The notes beneath the pieces are model-generated. The model saw only the letters and a program-made list of their open reading frames with translations. It was not told where the DNA came from and did no database searches. Source: Escherichia phage BSBP01. From it: a DNA stretch of 54,030 bases. The position numbers and the translations under genes are program-made. This document shows positions 24,207 through 44,736 of this stretch, one piece after another. The DNA is taken from the sequence record PQ231202.1; one strand, written 5' to 3'. Positions within the stretch are counted from its first letter, which is position 1, and the number at the start of each line of letters is the position of its first letter.

Positions 24207-24553
24207 GTTAAGTAATCCTCAAGACTTCCATAATCTGAGATAGCAATGAATGAAACTCTTACTTCACGCTCACGAAAGTCAGCATCAATATTTATAGAGA
24301 TAAGTTGTTGAACACCTGGGGTGCTCCGAATGACGTTGGCGATGGCTGCTTCAATGTCAGCAGTTCTGACAGTCTTAGTGAAGATTCCCTCGAACCAAGG
24401 GAGGCCAGTGGTCGTGTCATGTTTCCATTCTCCGAACACTGTTAATAATCTGCACTTAACTATTTGAGCAACCTCTTCTACACCACCGACCCTGGTTGCA
24501 CCACGACCAATAATAATATCGTGGTTAGAATCTAACAGTAAGTTTCCAGCCAT
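24182..24553 (-). CDS. Baseplate protein (gp25/gpW-like position)
   Basis: 123 aa between spike and J-like genes. Confidence 0.45.
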   Translation of the reverse strand: MAGNLLLDSNHDIIIGRGATRVGGVEEVAQIVKCRLLTVFGEWKHDTTTGLPWFEGIFTKTVRTADIEAAIANVIRSTPGVQQLISINIDADFREREVRVSFIAISDYGSLEDYLTWQQSSTA

Positions 24554-25344
24554 TATTTCATCGGCCCTACATCGCCGCCTTCTGGGTTAGTGTGGGTGTG
24601 TTCGTTAACCGTGACTCCGTTAATGGTGAACGTACCCTGTTGAACCATATCGCCTGTAATCGACATTGTTCCACCACTGCCACCTGACACTGACATTCCT
24701 CCGAGAACGGTGAGTGATTTTGTAACTGTGGTGTCGCCATCCAAAAGGATTTGCGGCGAGATAACAGACGCTTTTTCTGTCGCTTCAATTACTATCTCCG
24801 AATCTTTCGTGATTGTAATCTTTGCAGCACCAGTAATAAGTTCTACCTTTCCGTCACCATGAAGAGTCAGACGTTGGTCACGACTTGCATTTCGGAGTTC
24901 AGTAACTCCTGCATTAAATCCTGGTATTGCACCTGGAATTGGTTGTATCCCAATAATACACACAGCAGAGTTGTGAGAGAACAACTGACTGAATGCTGGG
25001 GCAGGCCTTCCACCAATCATTCCAGCAGAGTCTTTATTCTCTGCCAACCAATGTTCAATCCCTCGTTGAGCAAAATGAACATAACAAGGAGTACCATCTG
25101 GGACCGGATGTGTTAGACTCCAGCCGCCACCTTGGATGAACTGCACAGGAACATTTCTGAGCCGCTTCTTCTTTTCTAAGGTGTAGGCATTGGTGTAGCC
25201 TGTAAATAGGTTTTCGATTGCAAGCTGCACCTCACAGGTTTGAGTTACAGCATCGAAGTTATAAATATGGCCTGGGTATCCTGTATTAACAGTTGCAGAC
25301 CTTACATCGTTGTTATGACTCGCCACGTTCAAGTACACTCGCAT
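24553..25344 (-). CDS. Baseplate central spike (gpV-like) with C-terminal HTH apex motif
   Basis: C-terminus SITGD..GTFTINGVTVNEHTHTNPEGG, resembling HxH iron-binding spike tips. Confidence 0.55.
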   Translation of the reverse strand: MRVYLNVASHNNDVRSATVNTGYPGHIYNFDAVTQTCEVQLAIENLFTGYTNAYTLEKKKRLRNVPVQFIQGGGWSLTHPVPDGTPCYVHFAQRGIEHWLAENKDSAGMIGGRPAPAFSQLFSHNSAVCIIGIQPIPGAIPGFNAGVTELRNASRDQRLTLHGDGKVELITGAAKITITKDSEIVIEATEKASVISPQILLDGDTTVTKSLTVLGGMSVSGGSGGTMSITGDMVQQGTFTINGVTVNEHTHTNPEGGDVGPMK

Positions 25345-39919: not shown

Positions 39920-40143
39920 TATTTCTTCCTTAGAATAGTTCCATTACCCTTAACAATTTGAATGTTGTCGGAGGTGTGGAGTCGCAGATTCGACTCGTGC
40001 TTTAACTTAACACAGTCGCTCTCTGTGGTAGAAACTGCCTCAATCACACATAAAATGTTTCCTTCCAAATCTTGAATCTGGAAGGAGTTGTTCTTGCGTG
40101 AGCGGGCATCTAAACGAGTGATAACCGCCATATTTACATCCAT
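39919..40143 (-). CDS. Hypothetical protein
   Basis: 74-aa ORF between terminase and portal. Confidence 0.35.
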   Translation of the reverse strand: MDVNMAVITRLDARSRKNNSFQIQDLEGNILCVIEAVSTTESDCVKLKHESNLRLHTSDNIQIVKGNGTILRKK

Positions 40144-42179
40144 GCGGAGTAGTTGGCACTTGGGCCTGAGAATTCGATTGCAACCATATCTGAAACGTTA
40201 TCGACACAATCGTCGTGTCCAGTACCACTACCCAAAGAAGTGAATCCAAGTATTTCACGTCTAACATGGTCGATGTGTTCATGACCAGCAGGGAAGAATA
40301 TTCTCTTTTGCGAGAAATATGGGATTGCGTTAAGGAATCGAGTTACCTTGTCATTACCATTAATCCCATCACGAGGCAATGGCAAAACTCGGACACTCCC
40401 ATCTCTGATAAATTGTTGGTTCAAGAATTGTCCGGCAGACTTGTCTTCCATGTACAGTGCACGAGGAATACAACCTACGCATTTCAAGTCCAACTTGTTG
40501 CATTTGTTCCAGAAGTCGATGATAGCAGTCTTGAGTTCTGGAGTTTCAAACTTACCGAGCATAATATCTAAACAATAAACGTCACGCTCTTTAGTCACGC
40601 CCCAATGCTTAAGGACCGAATAATCAGAATAAGATTTGGCAGTTGATGCCGTATCCGCTGTAATAAAACTTCTGACTATGCGACTTCTGTCGAAAACGTC
40701 TGGCTCATACTCTTGCCACCAATCTTCTTTGATAAGGCCGTGGCCTTGTGCAGATGGGTCGCCAGCATACTGTGAATTGTATGTGTATGGGTTAGACTCT
40801 TTCATTGCCTCCAGAGATTCTAAGCTCTTACGTGAAGGCCATAATGCAGACTTCTCTTCCTTCCTGTTCAAATTATACAGAATGGGAATAGCATGAGTGT
40901 AGTTCTGCTTCTTGATTAACTTATCATACCATTCAGCACTTCCAACACCTTTCTCAATAATCGCTGGGATATTGAGATAATGGTATTTATCAGAAGAGCC
41001 ACCACGGAGTATATAACCAACTAAATCCTGGTCGTGAACCCGCTGCATGATGATAACCATTGGTGTACGGGCACACTTAATTTGGTTTCCGTACGAATCA
41101 GTTATGCAACCATCGTTGGCAAGGCGTGACATAAAGGTGTTATCAAATCGGTCGTTGATTTCTGCTCGAACTGTGTCAGAGTAGGCATCCTTAGGTTTGA
41201 TAACGTCATCCACCACGAAACAGCCAGAGTATTTTGCAACAAGAAGTCCAGCACCTTTACCAGTTAGCTTACCACCAGTAGGTACTGCGTGCATAACTCC
41301 AGCTTTGGTTGTACCCCAGCGTTCAAGAGAACGTTTGTTAGGGTCGATTCTCACCTTCGGGAATATTCGTTGGAACAGTGGGTCCATCATTACAGCACGG
41401 ATGTAACCACTCGATTCAAGAACAACGTCTTCTGCATACGAGGTGATAATGTTATGGCTTGATTCATTGTGGCAAAATGAATACAAGGGTAATGCGATAC
41501 TCATAAGCTGAGTCTTAGAGTGTCGTGGAGGAATGGTCACTATTAAGCGGTCAATCTCACCATCAACAACCTTCTGACCAACACTGAATATTACATCGTG
41601 AAAGTCTTGTGCTTGAAATGGAAATCCCATCTGAATATGGAACTGCCATTTACCAAAGGCTTCGAAACTTTTCATCAAGATTTTGCGAACACGTTCTGCA
41701 ACCTTGGCAGGGATTACAGTTGGGTCCACGTTATGTGGGTCATGCAGAATCTTGTCTACAAGTTCATCGGTGTTATCATGCTCCGAGTTTGGCTCCTCTA
41801 GTGTGGAACCTGCAACACGGTCAGTAACACCTGCTTGAATACCTTTCTTCAACTCATCTGCATAGGCAGTTGAGTCTTTCTTGTCGCCAGAGCGAAGACG
41901 CTCAAGTTGTGCTCTGAAAACGGAACGCAATACAGCATCGTTTTCAAGACCCTGGCCTTCTAACTCTGCTTGAATTTGTTCTTCATAGCTGTCAACTATT
42001 GCAGTATTTTCTGAAATATATCGACGGAGCAATGGCAAAGATAGAATACAGAATCTTTCTCTTGAGACTTTTAATACGTCACCGTAGTGCTTGGCAAGAT
42101 ACGAGGCTACTGTATCATTAAACTCCGGTCCGAGGTCATCAGTCTTTGACATTGATTCGTTCTCTTTGTTTTTAATCAC
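40134..42179 (-). CDS. Terminase large subunit
   Basis: ATPase P-loop-like TIPPRHSKTQ and C-terminal nuclease motif GHDDCVDN. Confidence 0.85.
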   Translation of the reverse strand: MIKNKENESMSKTDDLGPEFNDTVASYLAKHYGDVLKVSRERFCILSLPLLRRYISENTAIVDSYEEQIQAELEGQGLENDAVLRSVFRAQLERLRSGDKKDSTAYADELKKGIQAGVTDRVAGSTLEEPNSEHDNTDELVDKILHDPHNVDPTVIPAKVAERVRKILMKSFEAFGKWQFHIQMGFPFQAQDFHDVIFSVGQKVVDGEIDRLIVTIPPRHSKTQLMSIALPLYSFCHNESSHNIITSYAEDVVLESSGYIRAVMMDPLFQRIFPKVRIDPNKRSLERWGTTKAGVMHAVPTGGKLTGKGAGLLVAKYSGCFVVDDVIKPKDAYSDTVRAEINDRFDNTFMSRLANDGCITDSYGNQIKCARTPMVIIMQRVHDQDLVGYILRGGSSDKYHYLNIPAIIEKGVGSAEWYDKLIKKQNYTHAIPILYNLNRKEEKSALWPSRKSLESLEAMKESNPYTYNSQYAGDPSAQGHGLIKEDWWQEYEPDVFDRSRIVRSFITADTASTAKSYSDYSVLKHWGVTKERDVYCLDIMLGKFETPELKTAIIDFWNKCNKLDLKCVGCIPRALYMEDKSAGQFLNQQFIRDGSVRVLPLPRDGINGNDKVTRFLNAIPYFSQKRIFFPAGHEHIDHVRREILGFTSLGSGTGHDDCVDNVSDMVAIEFSGPSANYSAWM

Positions 42180-42357
42180 AATCCACTAATGGCTGAGTTT
42201 GCACGGGATTGATGCGAATGATGCTGCCTAAACCAGAATCGGCCTTTAAATACAGGCGGTTTAGTGGCATGTATGAATCACAGATAGGACATTGCTGCGT
42301 TATGAAATCATCTTCTGCAATTTCATAATGGCAGTTTGGACATTGTATTGTGCGCAT
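42172..42357 (-). CDS. Small zinc-ribbon protein
   Basis: CPNC...CPIC. Confidence 0.4.
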   Translation of the reverse strand: MRTIQCPNCHYEIAEDDFITQQCPICDSYMPLNRLYLKADSGLGSIIRINPVQTQPLVDCD

Positions 42358-42412: not shown

Positions 42413-42742
42413 TTAATATTTAATATCGCTCCAGGCCATATCTTTATAGAAATCTTCAAGATATGCTTGGGTAGAACCAACAACCACCACAATCTTAAAT
42501 GGCAGTATCAGCGGCTTAACAGCCGACATTAAATCTTCGCGCCCACGCTTGATACGTTCGACGTTCTTGATTGTGTTTTCACCATGTGGAAGCATGAAAA
42601 CGATAACATCCGCACCTGTTTCATTGCGAACTGCAAGTGCACGGGTGAGATAAGTCCCGCCACCAGTAGAGGTGACATTAGACTTGAGGTATGCAAATTT
42701 AACTTTGCGGTTATTTACTACAACAGGTGAGGACAGTTTCAT
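42413..42742 (-). CDS. Hypothetical protein
   Basis: 109-aa ORF. Confidence 0.45.
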   Translation of the reverse strand: MKLSSPVVVNNRKVKFAYLKSNVTSTGGGTYLTRALAVRNETGADVIVFMLPHGENTIKNVERIKRGREDLMSAVKPLILPFKIVVVVGSTQAYLEDFYKDMAWSDIKY

Positions 42743-42759
42743 TTCAGATAGGTTCCAGA

Positions 42760-43359
42760 TTATTTGTAACGTTCGGCCCCATGAGTGTGGGAACCAGTGA
42801 TTTCAACAGTTCCTGGCAAAGACACTTTCACACCACCATCACCAGTAATAGAGATGCTGTGTGAGTGTAAACCGTCAGGAATATGTGGCCTTTCATGCGG
42901 TCCAAGTTCAACACGACCAGTCGAGCCAAAGCCACCTTCACCACGACCAGTTGCATTCAAGCGGTCAACTTCAACGAAATGGTGTTGAGTAGCTTTACTA
43001 ACTTGCACCTGACAAATACGTTCACCTGGTTGAACCACAAAGGCTGTGTCCGAGTCGTTGTGCAACTTAACCATAAGATTGCCACGATAATCGGAGTCCA
43101 GAATTCCTGTGCAATTTGCCAAGCGGATGCCAGACTTAAAGCCATGACCAGAACGGCTATGTACTTTGAGTTCGTATCCAACTGGAATCTCGAATTGGAG
43201 GCCAGTATCGAAAACAGCAGAGCAGCCGGGATTGATAACAACAGTGCTATCGGAGATAGTGCAAACGTCAGCAGCAGCAGCGCCAGCAGTAGCGTACACA
43301 GGTAATTTCGCATTGGGATGCACTCGTTTAACTGCAACAACTTGGGTCATACAAGACAT
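42760..43359 (-). CDS. dut: dUTP pyrophosphatase with about 45-aa C-terminal extension
   Basis: All five dUTPase motifs (AGAAAADV, RSG, GILDSDYRG, RICQ, RGEGGFGSTG), then extension ending SITGDGGVKVSLPGTVEITGSHTHG. Confidence 0.85.
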   Translation of the reverse strand: MSCMTQVVAVKRVHPNAKLPVYATAGAAAADVCTISDSTVVINPGCSAVFDTGLQFEIPVGYELKVHSRSGHGFKSGIRLANCTGILDSDYRGNLMVKLHNDSDTAFVVQPGERICQVQVSKATQHHFVEVDRLNATGRGEGGFGSTGRVELGPHERPHIPDGLHSHSISITGDGGVKVSLPGTVEITGSHTHGAERYK

Positions 43360-43361
43360 GA

Positions 43362-44000
43362 TTATTTCTCTACTTGATAAGTTACGCGTTCAATCCAGTT
43401 GAACACTTTGAATACAGAATCACCCACTTTACCATCAACTAAATGTTCGTCCACTGTTACGCGGGTAGGTGTGTCTGGGAGGTTGATGTATCTGCGAGAA
43501 TCGCCCGTGAAATCAAAACCATCACGATGCAAACGCACAATGAGGACAAAATCATAAGCAGACTCAATGGCAACGACTTCATCACCAAAACCGCCATCGG
43601 GATAAATGACATTAATAATGCCACCCATACGCCCCGCGAGTTCTTCAACACGAGCAGCTTCAACCTTACCGAAGTAGTCTTGTCCGTAGCGAGGTTTATA
43701 CACATCTTCGCTAACGTGAATAAGAGCCTGACGAGGTGTTCTGCCACCAAGACCTGCAAGGGAGATAGAGTCTTTGAGGTCACGGTCCGAAGCGTAGTGA
43801 ATAAACTTGTCCACATCAACTTGAAAGTGTTTGGCAGTATGCTCATACAGTGCATCCTTAAACTGGTGTTTAATGAACTTGCGCTTACCGAGAAAGTATG
43901 GTTCCTCGGCAGCAACAATCTTATTTGCGATGGTGTCTTTACCGCAGCCAGGAGGTCCATTGAGAATAACAGCTAGTCGCTTAATCAAAACTTTCCTCAC
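43362..44000 (-). CDS. P-loop nucleotide or nucleoside kinase
   Basis: Walker A ILNGPPGCGKDT; start uncertain because the longest ORF overlaps the ligase 3' end. Confidence 0.55.
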   Translation of the reverse strand: MRKVLIKRLAVILNGPPGCGKDTIANKIVAAEEPYFLGKRKFIKHQFKDALYEHTAKHFQVDVDKFIHYASDRDLKDSISLAGLGGRTPRQALIHVSEDVYKPRYGQDYFGKVEAARVEELAGRMGGIINVIYPDGGFGDEVVAIESAYDFVLIVRLHRDGFDFTGDSRRYINLPDTPTRVTVDEHLVDGKVGDSVFKVFNWIERVTYQVEK

Positions 44001-44736
44001 TTTTGTCTGCACGTAAACGAACGAGTGACGGGAACCGGAACTTACCAGCTTCTGTCTTCTCACGATATCGAACTTGCATAATCGAACCAATTAGCTCGTG
44101 GCGATGTTCCCACAACCACTTACGAATCAATGTGTTAGATTCTGGAATACCGTGGTCTGCCAGACAATCTTTCACCATTGAACCAGCACTGCCGTAGTTC
44201 GAAGAGATAGAACCACACATACCTTTAAGAGCACCAGTACCTTCTTTCATACCAGTAATCTTCACATCGGCGTATTTATATGGTACAATCTTCCACCACT
44301 TACCTTTTGCATCACGGACAATGATACCTTCATGACCAAGCGCCAGATATTTATCCATCAATGCCTTAAGGTTTTCATTGCTTGGGTCTTTGCACCAGCC
44401 GATGTACAAGCGTGGGTCAACAGCACCATCACTCAACTCATACACATTGTCCTGGGTTAGTGGGATGCTTGGCGGGTCAATACGTCCGAGGATGCTAGAA
44501 GTCTCATTCCAACTATTACGGAATATCTCAGCATCTCTGAACTGTAAGTGGTCCAAATGAGGTAGGGGTTTGGAATTACGACTCCAGACACTACCTGATT
44601 TATTACGGATAGCTCGAATTCCGTCAATCTTGATGAAGAGTTCACAGCGCCCTTTGATACGGCAGTCTGGGTCTTCCCAATCATGTGCGTGAGCCTTTGT
44701 GTATCTTGTACCATCATCGAGGAGCTTAATAGACAT
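43981..44736 (-). CDS. Compact ATP-dependent DNA ligase
   Basis: Motif I KIDGIR near residue 34, EGIIVR, WWKIVPYK, and motif VI-like FRFPSLVRLRADK. Confidence 0.6.
   Translation of the reverse strand: MSIKLLDDGTRYTKAHAHDWEDPDCRIKGRCELFIKIDGIRAIRNKSGSVWSRNSKPLPHLDHLQFRDAEIFRNSWNETSSILGRIDPPSIPLTQDNVYELSDGAVDPRLYIGWCKDPSNENLKALMDKYLALGHEGIIVRDAKGKWWKIVPYKYADVKITGMKEGTGALKGMCGSISSNYGSAGSMVKDCLADHGIPESNTLIRKWLWEHRHELIGSIMQVRYREKTEAGKFRFPSLVRLRADKSEESFD

What the first reader, a model, noticed from the sequence alone, without database searches (positions are those of the whole stretch)
42760..43359. dUTPase with a C-terminal extension resembling the apex motif of the baseplate spike
After motif 5 the dUTPase continues for about 45 residues ending HSISITGDGGVKVSLPGTVEITGSHTHG. 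The spike at 24553..25344 ends MSITGDMVQQGTFTINGVTVNEHTHTNPEGG, sharing SITGD, a GT-x-I-x-G segment and the HTH triad. Both protein classes are trimers, so the extension may form a metal-binding trimeric tip on the enzyme.
Basis: partly seen in the sequence, partly recalled or inferred. Interest (0 to 1): 0.7.

Follow-up and report, generated by a model that had tools for sequence, protein, structure and literature searches.

The report
Phage dUTPase with fibre-type histidine-box tail
A phage enzyme that destroys dUTP carries an optional, fast-changing 51-residue tail studded with the same Gly-x-His-x-His "histidine box" that phage tail fibres use to lock three chains around a metal ion, a motif I could not find reported on any enzyme; the resemblance to this phage's own tail spike is not real.

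Summary
The ORF (42760..43359, minus strand, 199 aa) is a complete trimeric-type dUTPase of a phiEcoM-GJ1-like phage (Chaseviridae). It has a 51-residue tail after motif V containing HSH (aa165-167) and HTH (aa191-193). The similarity to the spike at 24553..25344 is not significant: BLASTP E=1.7, and no spike hit by tblastn over 50,697 phage genomes or by exhaustive phmmer.

The tail is still not random. Across Chaseviridae dUTPases it varies from 0 to about 75 residues and is mosaic, but His is 11% of residues. His-x-His occurs 29 times against 8 expected (0/20,000 shuffles), with Gly at -2 in 22/31 boxes.

With the histidines held fixed, the flanks match the iron-binding boxes of the T4 gp37 fibre (z≈9). 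They do not match spike Apex boxes of P2 gpV, Mu gp45 or this phage (z=0.7).

Within one tail type dN/dS is 0.03-0.15, so the tail is translated and constrained. Close relatives (97% core identity) lack it entirely.

Best reading: a facultative fibre-type His-box tail whose three copies form His6-metal cages on the enzyme's threefold axis. That step is inferred, not shown. New variant of a known kind; moderate interest.

The parts
42760..43359 (-). dUTPase CDS, 199 aa plus stop (orthologue of phiEcoM-GJ1 gp44)
   Evidence: ORF list. 96-98% identical to annotated dUTPases of Carltongylesvirus phages.
42916..43359 (-). Catalytic core, aa1-148, with the conserved dUTPase residues intact (D31, R69-S70-G71, D88/D90/Y91/G93, R114/Q117, R139...G148)
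   Evidence: Pfam PF00692 E=1.8e-22. phmmer matches to solved dUTPases, E 5e-29 to 1e-16; these entries, e.g. E. coli 1DUP and human 2HQU, are homotrimers by established knowledge. Invariant columns in alignment A2. AF2 pLDDT >90 for the core.
42916..42945 (-). Motif V, RGEGGFGSTG (aa139-148), the flexible C-terminal arm
   Evidence: Translation. Aligned to motif V of solved dUTPases.
42868..42915 (-). Linker RVELGPHERPHIPDGL (aa149-164), Pro/His-rich; replaced by other linkers in relatives
   Evidence: blastn breakpoints at about aa150 and aa162.
42856..42876 (-). His box 1, DGLHSHS (H165, H167)
   Evidence: Sub-threshold Pfam PF03335 'Phage tail fibre repeat' match at tail residues 16-25. 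Family-wide G-x-H-x-H enrichment.
42796..42858 (-). Beta-prone spacer SISITGDGGVKVSLPGTVEIT (aa168-188), readable as three 8-residue x-phi-x-phi-x-G-x-G units; swapped for unrelated spacers in relatives
   Evidence: Weak repeated matches to the strand-turn-strand end of repeat units in large multi-repeat proteins; reading these units as Ig-like domains is my inspection, not a domain search.
42781..42795 (-). His box 2, GSHTH (H191, H193)
   Evidence: The box G-[AS]-H-x-H-G-A-x-[RF]-Y-K is kept in several otherwise different tail types.
42763..42780 (-). C-terminal cap GAERYK (aa194-199)
   Evidence: Conserved end of tails in lineages down to 57-59% identity over the BLASTP-aligned region: GANRYK in P0030, GAHFYK in P0040.
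24553..25344 (-). Central baseplate spike (comparison object, not part of the dUTPase feature); Apex HTH at 24592..24600
   Evidence: Pfam PF18352 E=5.5e-18. PDB matches to puncture devices and to Mu gp45 aa113-197. It carries the only other HxH in a tail-region protein of the window.

Best explanation
The gene encodes an ordinary, probably active, homotrimeric dUTPase. A facultative accessory tail has been grafted behind motif V.

The tail is built from modules: a linker, one to four fibre-type 'His boxes' (G-x-H-x-H followed by a short beta-prone segment), variable spacers and, in many lineages, a conserved ...H-x-H-G-A-x-R-Y-K end. In this window there are two boxes (H165/H167 and H191/H193) bracketing a 21-residue beta-prone spacer.

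The proposed mechanism has three steps. First, the enzyme is a threefold-symmetric trimer, so its three tails emerge in parallel. Second, they zip in register. Third, each box layer contributes 3 x 2 histidines to an octahedral cage around a divalent metal (Fe2+ or Zn2+) on the threefold axis. This is how the same motif works in T4 gp37 and gp12, R-pyocin fibres and P2/Mu-type spikes.

The result would be a short metal-locked stalk that ties the three motif-V arms together. It could stabilise or couple the arms, or present a variable docking surface.

Shown here: the motif, its enrichment, its fibre-type context, coding constraint, mosaic exchange, and restriction to Chaseviridae.

Inferred, not shown: trimeric assembly of the tail, metal binding, and any effect on catalysis.

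The tail did not come from the phage's spike. Its boxes are of the fibre type, not the Apex type.
For: (1) Enzyme identity. Pfam PF00692 and all conserved motif residues are present. The best solved relatives are dUTPases of the homotrimeric class (oligomeric state from established knowledge).

(2) His enrichment. In 24 diverse tails His is 11.4% of residues. H-x-H occurs 29 times against 8.0 expected from composition-preserving shuffles (0/20,000). Spacings 0 and 2-5 are at or below expectation. A reduced set of 18 lineages gives 20 against 5.5 (0/20,000).

(3) Gly at -2 in 22/31 boxes, binomial P=3e-14.

(4) Fibre-type flanks. With the His positions fixed and all other residues shuffled, the flanks match the seven HxH boxes of the T4 gp37 tip (aa883-1000). 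These boxes lie in the region reported to hold the gp37 iron sites (PMC6116203; that there are seven irons is from my own knowledge). Summed score is 326 against 34±34, 0/1000. Using only three gp37 boxes gives z=9.0.

(5) Pfam 'Phage tail fibre repeat' PF03335 is the only Pfam hit of the window's tail (E=0.014).

(6) Seven of eight tails tested align to gp37 aa926-1000, the HxH-bearing tip, with pairwise E 0.001-0.11; the eighth (P0040) aligns elsewhere at E=2.5. Against the phage's own spike the range is 0.04-6.

(7) Selection. Within a tail type dN/dS is 0.03-0.15. SA91KD against FXie shows 16.5 synonymous and 2.5 non-synonymous differences in 49 codons.

(8) Literature. The HxH cage is described as an intermolecular motif of trimeric fibres and spikes, thought to keep chains in register (bioRxiv 10.1101/2023.02.25.529910; PMC6116203).
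Against: No direct evidence for metal binding or for tail trimerisation.

The AF2 monomer model leaves the tail at pLDDT 41-46 with no secondary structure. That is uninformative for an obligate-trimer fold, but it gives no support.

Pfam PF03335 is below its gathering score (15.9 against 20 bits).

No fibre is found by exhaustive phmmer or by tblastn, so the relation is at motif level only.

In four lineages the first box starts only 6-7 residues after motif V. That may be too short to reach the threefold axis while motif V is docked on the active site, so a cage there might compete with arm closure, or the boxes may work differently.

The tail is dispensable: relatives with 91-97% identical cores stop at GRV, and 6 of 18 tailed lineages have no HxH.

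The tails are phylogenetically related, so the shuffle statistics overstate independence.
Confidence: 0.5

Rival explanations
1. One reading: the extension is related to, or copied from, the Apex domain of the phage's own baseplate spike. It would form a spike-like metal tip, perhaps with the dUTPase packaged in the virion.
For: Both end with an HTH near the C-terminus. They share SITGD and a GT..I.G segment. Both parent proteins are trimers. The spike is a genuine central spike with an Apex-type HxH (for the Apex definition).
Against: BLASTP E=1.5-1.7. The SW shuffle test gives z=2.3, and the best path is a different alignment. tblastn over 50,697 phage genomes and phmmer over 1.84 billion proteins find no spike. 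With His fixed, tail flanks do not resemble Apex boxes (z=0.7, 110/500 shuffles as good), and the Apex signature H-x-H-x-x-G-[DE]-x-G-G is absent. The OB-fold and long beta-helix that define spikes are absent. No virion proteomics evidence was found.
Confidence: 0.06
2. The tail is a flexible His-rich metal-binding peptide that does not form on-axis cages. It might chelate Ni, Zn or Fe within one chain (two boxes giving a 4-His site). It might bridge to another protein, or modulate motif V or the active-site metal when the arm closes.
For: The tail has low predicted order. In several lineages the first box lies 6-7 residues from motif V. Box number and spacing are highly variable. H-x-H on one face of a beta-strand is a general metal ligand pair (established knowledge, e.g. 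carbonic anhydrase, Cu,Zn-SOD).
Against: Many tails have a single box, which alone gives only two ligands unless chains combine. The flank signature is specifically that of trimeric fibre boxes (z about 9), not of a generic His-rich tract. HH and other spacings are not enriched. The parent enzyme supplies exactly the threefold symmetry the cage needs.
Confidence: 0.25
3. The tail is mainly a hypervariable docking or evasion surface, for example binding or avoiding a host or satellite factor, as staphylococcal phage dUTPases are read by SaPI Stl repressors. The His boxes would serve only as scaffold or recombination joints.
For: Tail dS is roughly 1.1-5 times core dS (about 3-fold or more in most pairs), and tail types are swapped between phages with near-identical cores. 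blastn homology breaks at aa150, aa162 and aa168, at or next to box 1. Presence or absence varies among close relatives. Precedent for moonlighting phage dUTPases comes from my own knowledge (Tormo-Mas et al. 2010) and from the Stl-dUTPase literature (PMC5794464).
Against: No partner is known. No defence or satellite system sensing dUTPase is known in Enterobacteria. This rival is compatible with the main explanation rather than exclusive of it.
Confidence: 0.15
4. The extension is a non-functional read-through or recombination scar downstream of a normal dUTPase.
For: It is dispensable in close relatives and very variable.
Against: There is strong purifying selection within tail types (dN/dS 0.03-0.15). 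The frame is intact in every tailed genome examined. The terminal motif is conserved across lineages down to 57-59% identity. The HxH pattern is non-random.
Confidence: 0.03

Closest known systems
HxH 'histidine cage' / GxHxH His boxes of phage tail fibres (T4 gp37 tip, PDB 2XGF; T4 gp12; R1/R2 pyocin fibres)
   Same: Same G-x-H-x-H-[ST]-phi context (flank test z about 9). One to several boxes per chain separated by short beta-prone segments. The parent protein is a homotrimer. The boxes lie at or near mosaic breakpoints, as proposed for T-even fibre 'His boxes' (Tetart et al. 1998, own knowledge).
   Different: The host protein is a cytoplasmic nucleotide-metabolism enzyme, not a virion fibre. 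The tail is only 14-75 residues. There is no detectable homology beyond the motif. Pfam PF03335 is below threshold. Metal binding is untested.
Apex domain of central baseplate spikes (P2 gpV, phi92-type spike, Mu gp45, and this phage's own spike at 24553..25344)
   Same: A C-terminal HxH in a trimeric protein. In spikes, three copies cage one Fe ion.
   Different: The Apex signature H-x-H-x-x-G-[DE]-x-G-G and its flanks are not shared (z=0.7). There is no OB-fold or long triple beta-helix. No significant alignment exists.
Trimeric phage dUTPases with accessory segments (staphylococcal phi11/80alpha Dut motif VI; phage T5 dUTPase extra loop; Drosophila dUTPase C-terminal extension)
   Same: A canonical trimeric dUTPase core carries a lineage-specific, variable add-on that is not needed for catalysis. 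In the staphylococcal and T5 cases the add-on has a second, non-enzymatic role (own knowledge; PMC5794464 seen).
   Different: Those add-ons are internal insertions or unrelated tails without HxH boxes. None is proposed to bind metal on the threefold axis.
T4 fibritin 'foldon' (small C-terminal trimerisation domain)
   Same: A short C-terminal module whose only structural job is to hold three parallel chains in register. This is a functional analogy from own knowledge.
   Different: The foldon is a metal-free beta-hairpin propeller with no sequence relation.

Membership tests
Trimeric dUTPase (Pfam PF00692) | Profile match above the curated threshold | tested here: met
   80 bits against a cut-off of 22, E=1.8e-22, aa16-148.
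Trimeric dUTPase (Pfam PF00692) | Five conserved motifs, including the Asp of motif III and the Gly-rich motif V | tested here: met
   D31, R69/S70/G71, D88/D90/Y91/G93, R114/Q117 and R139...G143-G148 are invariant or near-invariant in alignment A2. They align to solved dUTPases.
Trimeric dUTPase (Pfam PF00692) | Homotrimeric quaternary structure | not testable with these tools
   Inferred from homology to solved dUTPases known to be homotrimers (oligomeric state from established knowledge). Only a monomer could be modelled.
Fibre-type HxH histidine cage (GxHxH His box) | H-x-H motif, recurrent and non-random, in a homotrimeric protein | tested here: met
   29 observed against 8.0 expected, 0/20,000 shuffles. 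Other spacings are not enriched. 12 of 18 tail lineages carry at least one box.
Fibre-type HxH histidine cage (GxHxH His box) | Sequence context like structurally verified iron sites (Gly at -2, Ser/Thr then a beta-prone segment after) | tested here: met
   Gly at -2 in 22/31 boxes, P=3e-14. Flank score against T4 gp37 boxes is 326 against 34±34. z=9.0 with three boxes.
Fibre-type HxH histidine cage (GxHxH His box) | Match to Pfam PF03335 'Phage tail fibre repeat' at the gathering score | tested here: not met
   15.9 bits against 20, E=0.014. It is seen in 2 of 4 tails tested.
Fibre-type HxH histidine cage (GxHxH His box) | Octahedral His6 coordination of Fe2+/Zn2+ on the threefold axis by three chains in register | not testable with these tools
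   Needs a trimer model with metal, or experiment. The AF2 monomer gives pLDDT 41-46 for the tail.
Central-spike Apex domain (P2 gpV / Mu gp45 type) | Significant sequence similarity to Apex domains | tested here: not met
   E=1.5-1.7 against the phage's own spike. No spike appears in tblastn or phmmer searches. Flank test z=0.7.
Central-spike Apex domain (P2 gpV / Mu gp45 type) | Preceded by an OB-fold and an intertwined triple beta-helix of a baseplate spike | tested here: not met
   The tail follows a dUTPase core. The spike architecture is found only in ORF 24553..25344.
Central-spike Apex domain (P2 gpV / Mu gp45 type) | HxH near the C-terminus | tested here: met
   H191-T-H193 lies six residues from the end. 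This feature alone is shared with fibres.

The most novel reading that the evidence does not exclude
A virion-fibre building block, the intermolecular His6-metal cage, has been recruited by a cytoplasmic enzyme. The three C-terminal arms of a phage dUTPase would be tied into a metal-loaded mini-fibre. Its formation could gate motif-V closure, giving metal-dependent control of dUTP hydrolysis, or could present a rapidly exchangeable docking stalk. I found no report of an HxH cage outside virion or tailocin proteins, so this may be the first. It would also be a natural, modular, about 10-residue metal-dependent trimerisation tag.
Probability: 0.4. Interest if true: 0.65.

Novelty: new variant of a known kind. 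Interest (0 to 1): 0.5.

Why it matters
The HxH cage is described in the literature as a feature of phage fibres, tailspikes and central spikes, and its role in folding and register is still untested.

Finding the same box type on a small, soluble, easily assayed trimeric enzyme offers a simple system. It occurs there in natural variants with 0, 1, 2, 3 or 4 boxes on nearly identical cores. That series could test what the cage does for trimer stability, chain register and metal selectivity.

It also adds a case to the growing list of phage dUTPases with accessory, fast-evolving segments, which elsewhere signal a second function. The box could also be of practical interest as a minimal metal-dependent trimerisation tag.

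If the tails turn out to be disordered and metal-free, the finding reduces to a clade-specific variable tail of unknown role.

Tried and rejected
1. Direct homology of tail and spike was rejected: BLASTP E=1.7, shuffle z=2.3, Apex flank test z=0.7.

2. phmmer of the tail against PDB sequences gave only an irrelevant hit, 6czj 'b10', E=0.51. An 18-column profile of 24 boxes against PDB gave no hits, probably because it is too short for HMMER's filters.

3. Exhaustive phmmer of the tail over 1.84 billion representatives found one true relative, a dUTPase. The other six hits are large multi-repeat proteins that reach significance by summing weak matches; in most of them a repeat unit with a strand-turn-strand end aligns to the spacer. 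I judged them analogous, not homologous, and none is a fibre or spike.

4. The AF2 monomer with a 57-sequence alignment gave a confident core and an unstructured tail at pLDDT 41-46. It cannot address a trimer-only fold.

5. A donor fibre within the phage was sought. No other tail-region protein in the window has a G-x-H-x-H box; only the spike has an HxH.

6. Literature searches for dUTPase with HxH, a C-terminal extension or Chaseviridae found no description of this tail. The phiEcoM-GJ1 genome and proteome paper (PMC2223254) is not held. The ST32 and Yersinia-phage papers contain no virion proteomics for it.

7. The read-through or scar hypothesis was rejected by dN/dS.

8. A general property of phage dUTPases was rejected. 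Of 80 IMG/VR loci, only the three Chaseviridae tails have HxH. Ten non-Chaseviridae tails have 2.7% His and no HxH.

Full report
**What is in the sequence**

The window is a phiEcoM-GJ1-like myovirus (Chaseviridae, Cleopatravirinae, Carltongylesvirus). The 3-kb region around the finding is 95-98% identical to a series of Escherichia phages.

ORF 42760..43359 on the minus strand encodes 199 aa. Pfam dUTPase PF00692 covers aa16-148 (80 bits, cut-off 22). The protein aligns over aa3-153 to dozens of solved dUTPases of the homotrimeric class, with E down to 5e-29. The conserved residues of the catalytic motifs are invariant in an alignment of 57 relatives.

Motif V (RGEGGFGSTG) is aa139-148. It is followed by 51 further residues: RVELGPHERPHIPDGLHSHSISITGDGGVKVSLPGTVEITGSHTHGAERYK.

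ORF 24553..25344 is a real central baseplate spike. It matches Pfam PF18352, and its C-terminal 90 residues match the solved Mu gp45 C-terminal domain.

**Is the resemblance to the spike real?**

No.

- BLASTP of the tail against the spike gives E=1.5-1.7 in a search space of only 52 x 263 residues.
- A Smith-Waterman shuffle test gives z=2.3, with 32-34 of 1000 shuffles as good. The same weak z (2.1-2.2) is obtained against an unrelated fibre protein.
- tblastn of the tail against 50,697 phage genomes at E<=10 returns only dUTPase tails of Carltongylesvirus phages. It does not return the spike of the same phages.
- phmmer against 1.84 billion protein representatives returns one true relative, a dUTPase. 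The other six hits are large multi-repeat proteins that score by summing weak matches, mostly of a strand-turn-strand element to the spacer SISITGDGGVKVSL.

**What the tail is**

The tails of related dUTPases were read from 120 database homologues, 11 + 80 IMG/VR loci and 14 named phage genomes. They range from nothing (GRV-stop) to about 75 residues and are hardly alignable.

One element recurs: G-[SA]-H-x-H-[SGT] followed by a short beta-prone segment, in 0 to 4 copies.

- In 24 diverse tails His makes up 11.4% of residues. H-x-H occurs 29 times against 8.0 expected from composition-preserving shuffles (0 of 20,000). HH and the spacings H-x2-5-H are at or below expectation.
- A reduced set of 18 lineages gives 20 against 5.5 (0 of 20,000).
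- Gly occupies position -2 in 22 of 31 boxes (P=3e-14).
- Ten C-terminal tails of dUTPases outside this clade have 2.7% His and no H-x-H.
- HxH-tailed metagenomic proteins sit in the Chaseviridae gene order ligase, dNMP-kinase-like, dUTPase ... terminase.

The motif is therefore a clade-specific, selected feature.

**Fibre type, not Apex type**

The HxH motif is documented as an intermolecular 'histidine cage'. Three symmetry-related copies coordinate one Fe ion octahedrally in P2 gpV and other spikes, in the T4 gp37 fibre and in R-pyocin fibres, with Zn seen in gp12 (bioRxiv 10.1101/2023.02.25.529910; PMC6116203).

I extracted T4 gp37. Its tip (aa883-1000) holds seven HxH boxes; the correspondence to seven iron sites in the 2XGF structure is from my own knowledge.

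I kept the histidines of the dUTPase tails fixed and shuffled all other residues. The flanks score 326 against the gp37 boxes, compared with 34±34 for shuffles (0/1000). Three gp37 boxes alone give z=9.0.

The same test against the Apex boxes of P2 gpV (H197/H199), Mu gp45 and this phage's spike gives z=0.7, with 110 of 500 shuffles as good. The Apex signature H-x-H-x-x-G-[DE]-x-G-G is absent.

Pairwise BLASTP places seven of eight tested tails on gp37 aa926-1000 with E 0.001-0.11; one (P0040) does not align there (E=2.5). Against the spike the range is 0.04-6. The only Pfam family hitting the window's tail is PF03335 'Phage tail fibre repeat', below threshold (15.9 against 20 bits, E=0.014).

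**Evolutionary behaviour**

The tail is facultative and mosaic. Phages whose cores are 91-97% identical to this one end at GRV-stop (Mangalitsa-type contig, TH26, TH37, PYps23T, MLP1). There the tail coding block is replaced by a 15-nt AT-rich stretch before the next gene's ribosome-binding site.

Among tailed phages, linkers, spacers and ends are combined differently:

- GJ1, JL1 and the window: ...HSHSISIxGDGGVKVSLPGTVEIxGSHTHGAERYK
- SA91KD, FXie and SKA49: ...HSHSMSVVGEGTTAFVSGTTSIGAHTHGAERYK
- ST32, DE15, Pel53 and EcoM1: other combinations

Nucleotide homology breaks at about aa150, aa162 and aa168, that is, after motif V and at box 1.

Nei-Gojobori estimates show that the tail is translated and constrained. 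Within a tail type dN/dS is 0.03-0.15. SA91KD against FXie shows 16.5 synonymous and 2.5 non-synonymous differences in 49 codons. Tail dS exceeds core dS by roughly 1.1- to 5-fold, and by about 3-fold or more in most pairs. This indicates older alleles exchanged between lineages.

The end ...H-x-H-G-A-x-[RF]-Y-K is kept in lineages only 57-59% identical over the aligned region.

**How it most likely works**

Shown: a canonical dUTPase of the homotrimeric class with a constrained, exchangeable tail made of fibre-type His boxes.

Inferred: because the enzyme is threefold symmetric, the three tails can align in parallel. Each box layer can then form a His6 cage around Fe2+ or Zn2+ on the axis, as in fibres. 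In this protein that would give two cages (H165/H167 and H191/H193) separated by a 21-residue spacer. The spacer reads as three x-phi-x-phi-x-G-x-G octads (SISITGDG, GVKVSLPG, TVEITGSH), compatible with a hairpin or one turn of a triple beta-helix. This reading is speculative.

Such a stalk would tether the three motif-V arms and might stabilise or couple them. Given its hypervariability, it might also serve as a docking surface.

I put this at about 0.5.

The main difficulty is that in four lineages the first box begins only 6-7 residues after motif V. That may not reach the axis while the arm is closed over the active site. A cage there could therefore compete with catalysis, or the boxes could bind metal in another geometry (rival, 0.25).

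The AF2 monomer model is confident for the core and blank for the tail (pLDDT 41-46). This neither supports nor refutes a trimer-only fold. Trimer prediction and metal analysis could not be done here.

**Comparison with what is known, and novelty**

The enzyme is an ordinary member of the trimeric dUTPase family. The tail works, by inference, like the HxH cages of phage fibres.

It passes the sequence-level membership tests for those cages: motif, context and trimeric parent. It fails the Pfam gathering threshold. The defining structural feature is untested.

It is not a member of the spike Apex family, because similarity and architecture were both tested and not met.

Searches of 8 million papers for dUTPase together with HxH, a C-terminal extension or Chaseviridae found no description of this tail. 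Database annotations call the protein simply dUTPase.

I therefore rate it a new variant of a known kind, of moderate interest (0.5). It is a neat and testable case of a virion-fibre motif on a metabolic enzyme, with natural 0-to-4-box variants. The mechanism is unproven and the biological role is unknown.

Noticed in passing
L003, L004, L007, L010 just downstream of the dUTPase; L108 1757-1978; L109 2704-2889; L110 6543-6740. Absent at window 42743-42759.: In many relatives the gene immediately after the dUTPase is a 61-73 aa protein of Pfam PF25708 (Phage_T7_Gp5_9 family). The window and phiEcoM-GJ1 lack it and go straight to the 109-aa gp45-like ORF (42413..42742).
   Followed up: partly
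L005 and L006, positions 2951-2970 (tail-less relatives): Where the tail is missing, GRV is followed by TAATTAGTAACTAAT, a short stretch with stop codons in all three frames. It lies directly before the conserved TGGAACCTATCTGAAATG start region of the next gene. The indel of the tail module is therefore clean.
   Followed up: partly
P0077, P0080, P0093 (64-69 aa tails); P0085 (Burkholderia ubonensis) and P0111 (95-aa tails): Other dUTPases, outside Chaseviridae, carry quite different C-terminal domains after motif V. One is a KVGQRVRLSPD... domain of about 65 aa. Another is a 95-aa Cys/Trp-containing domain. The position after motif V tolerates appended domains in general.
   Followed up: no
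window 42172..42357 to 40134..42179, compared with L001 3150-3641: phiEcoM-GJ1 has an HNH endonuclease gene (gp47) between the 61-aa zinc-ribbon-like ORF and the large terminase. The window lacks it: the terminase ORF starts directly after the 61-aa ORF. This is another mobile-element presence/absence polymorphism in the region.
   Followed up: no
window 43362..44090 (-): The mechanical ORF upstream of the dUTPase is 242 aa from a TTG start. The orthologue in phiEcoM-GJ1 is annotated as 208 aa (627 nt). It has a P-loop (GPPGCGKD) and is variously annotated as dNMP kinase, adenylate kinase or ATP-binding protein. Pfam gives only weak AAA-type hits.
   Followed up: no
P0124 (814 aa) and P0121 (1601 aa), hits: Large multi-repeat proteins reached E of 1e-7 to 1e-22 against a 52-aa query only by summing 6-12 weak repeat matches (e.g. 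HTHTMSITSNGGDGSVDV against HSHSISITGDGGVKVS). This is a caution about multi-repeat inflation in phmmer whole-sequence E-values.
   Followed up: yes
L016 (record PP952070.1): A Chaseviridae genome deposited as 'Staphylococcus phage Pel53' (host Staphylococcus hyicus) has an 89%-identical dUTPase region and the same gene order as the E. coli phages. The host assignment looks doubtful for a member of this Gammaproteobacteria-infecting family.
   Followed up: no
PMC6266442 (phage ST32) and PMC6753284 (Mangalitsa): Members of this phage group are reported as low-temperature phages: the ST32 burst is about 600 at 20 °C against 2 at 37 °C. ST32 has a two-box tail and Mangalitsa has none, so the tail does not obviously track this trait.
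   Followed up: no
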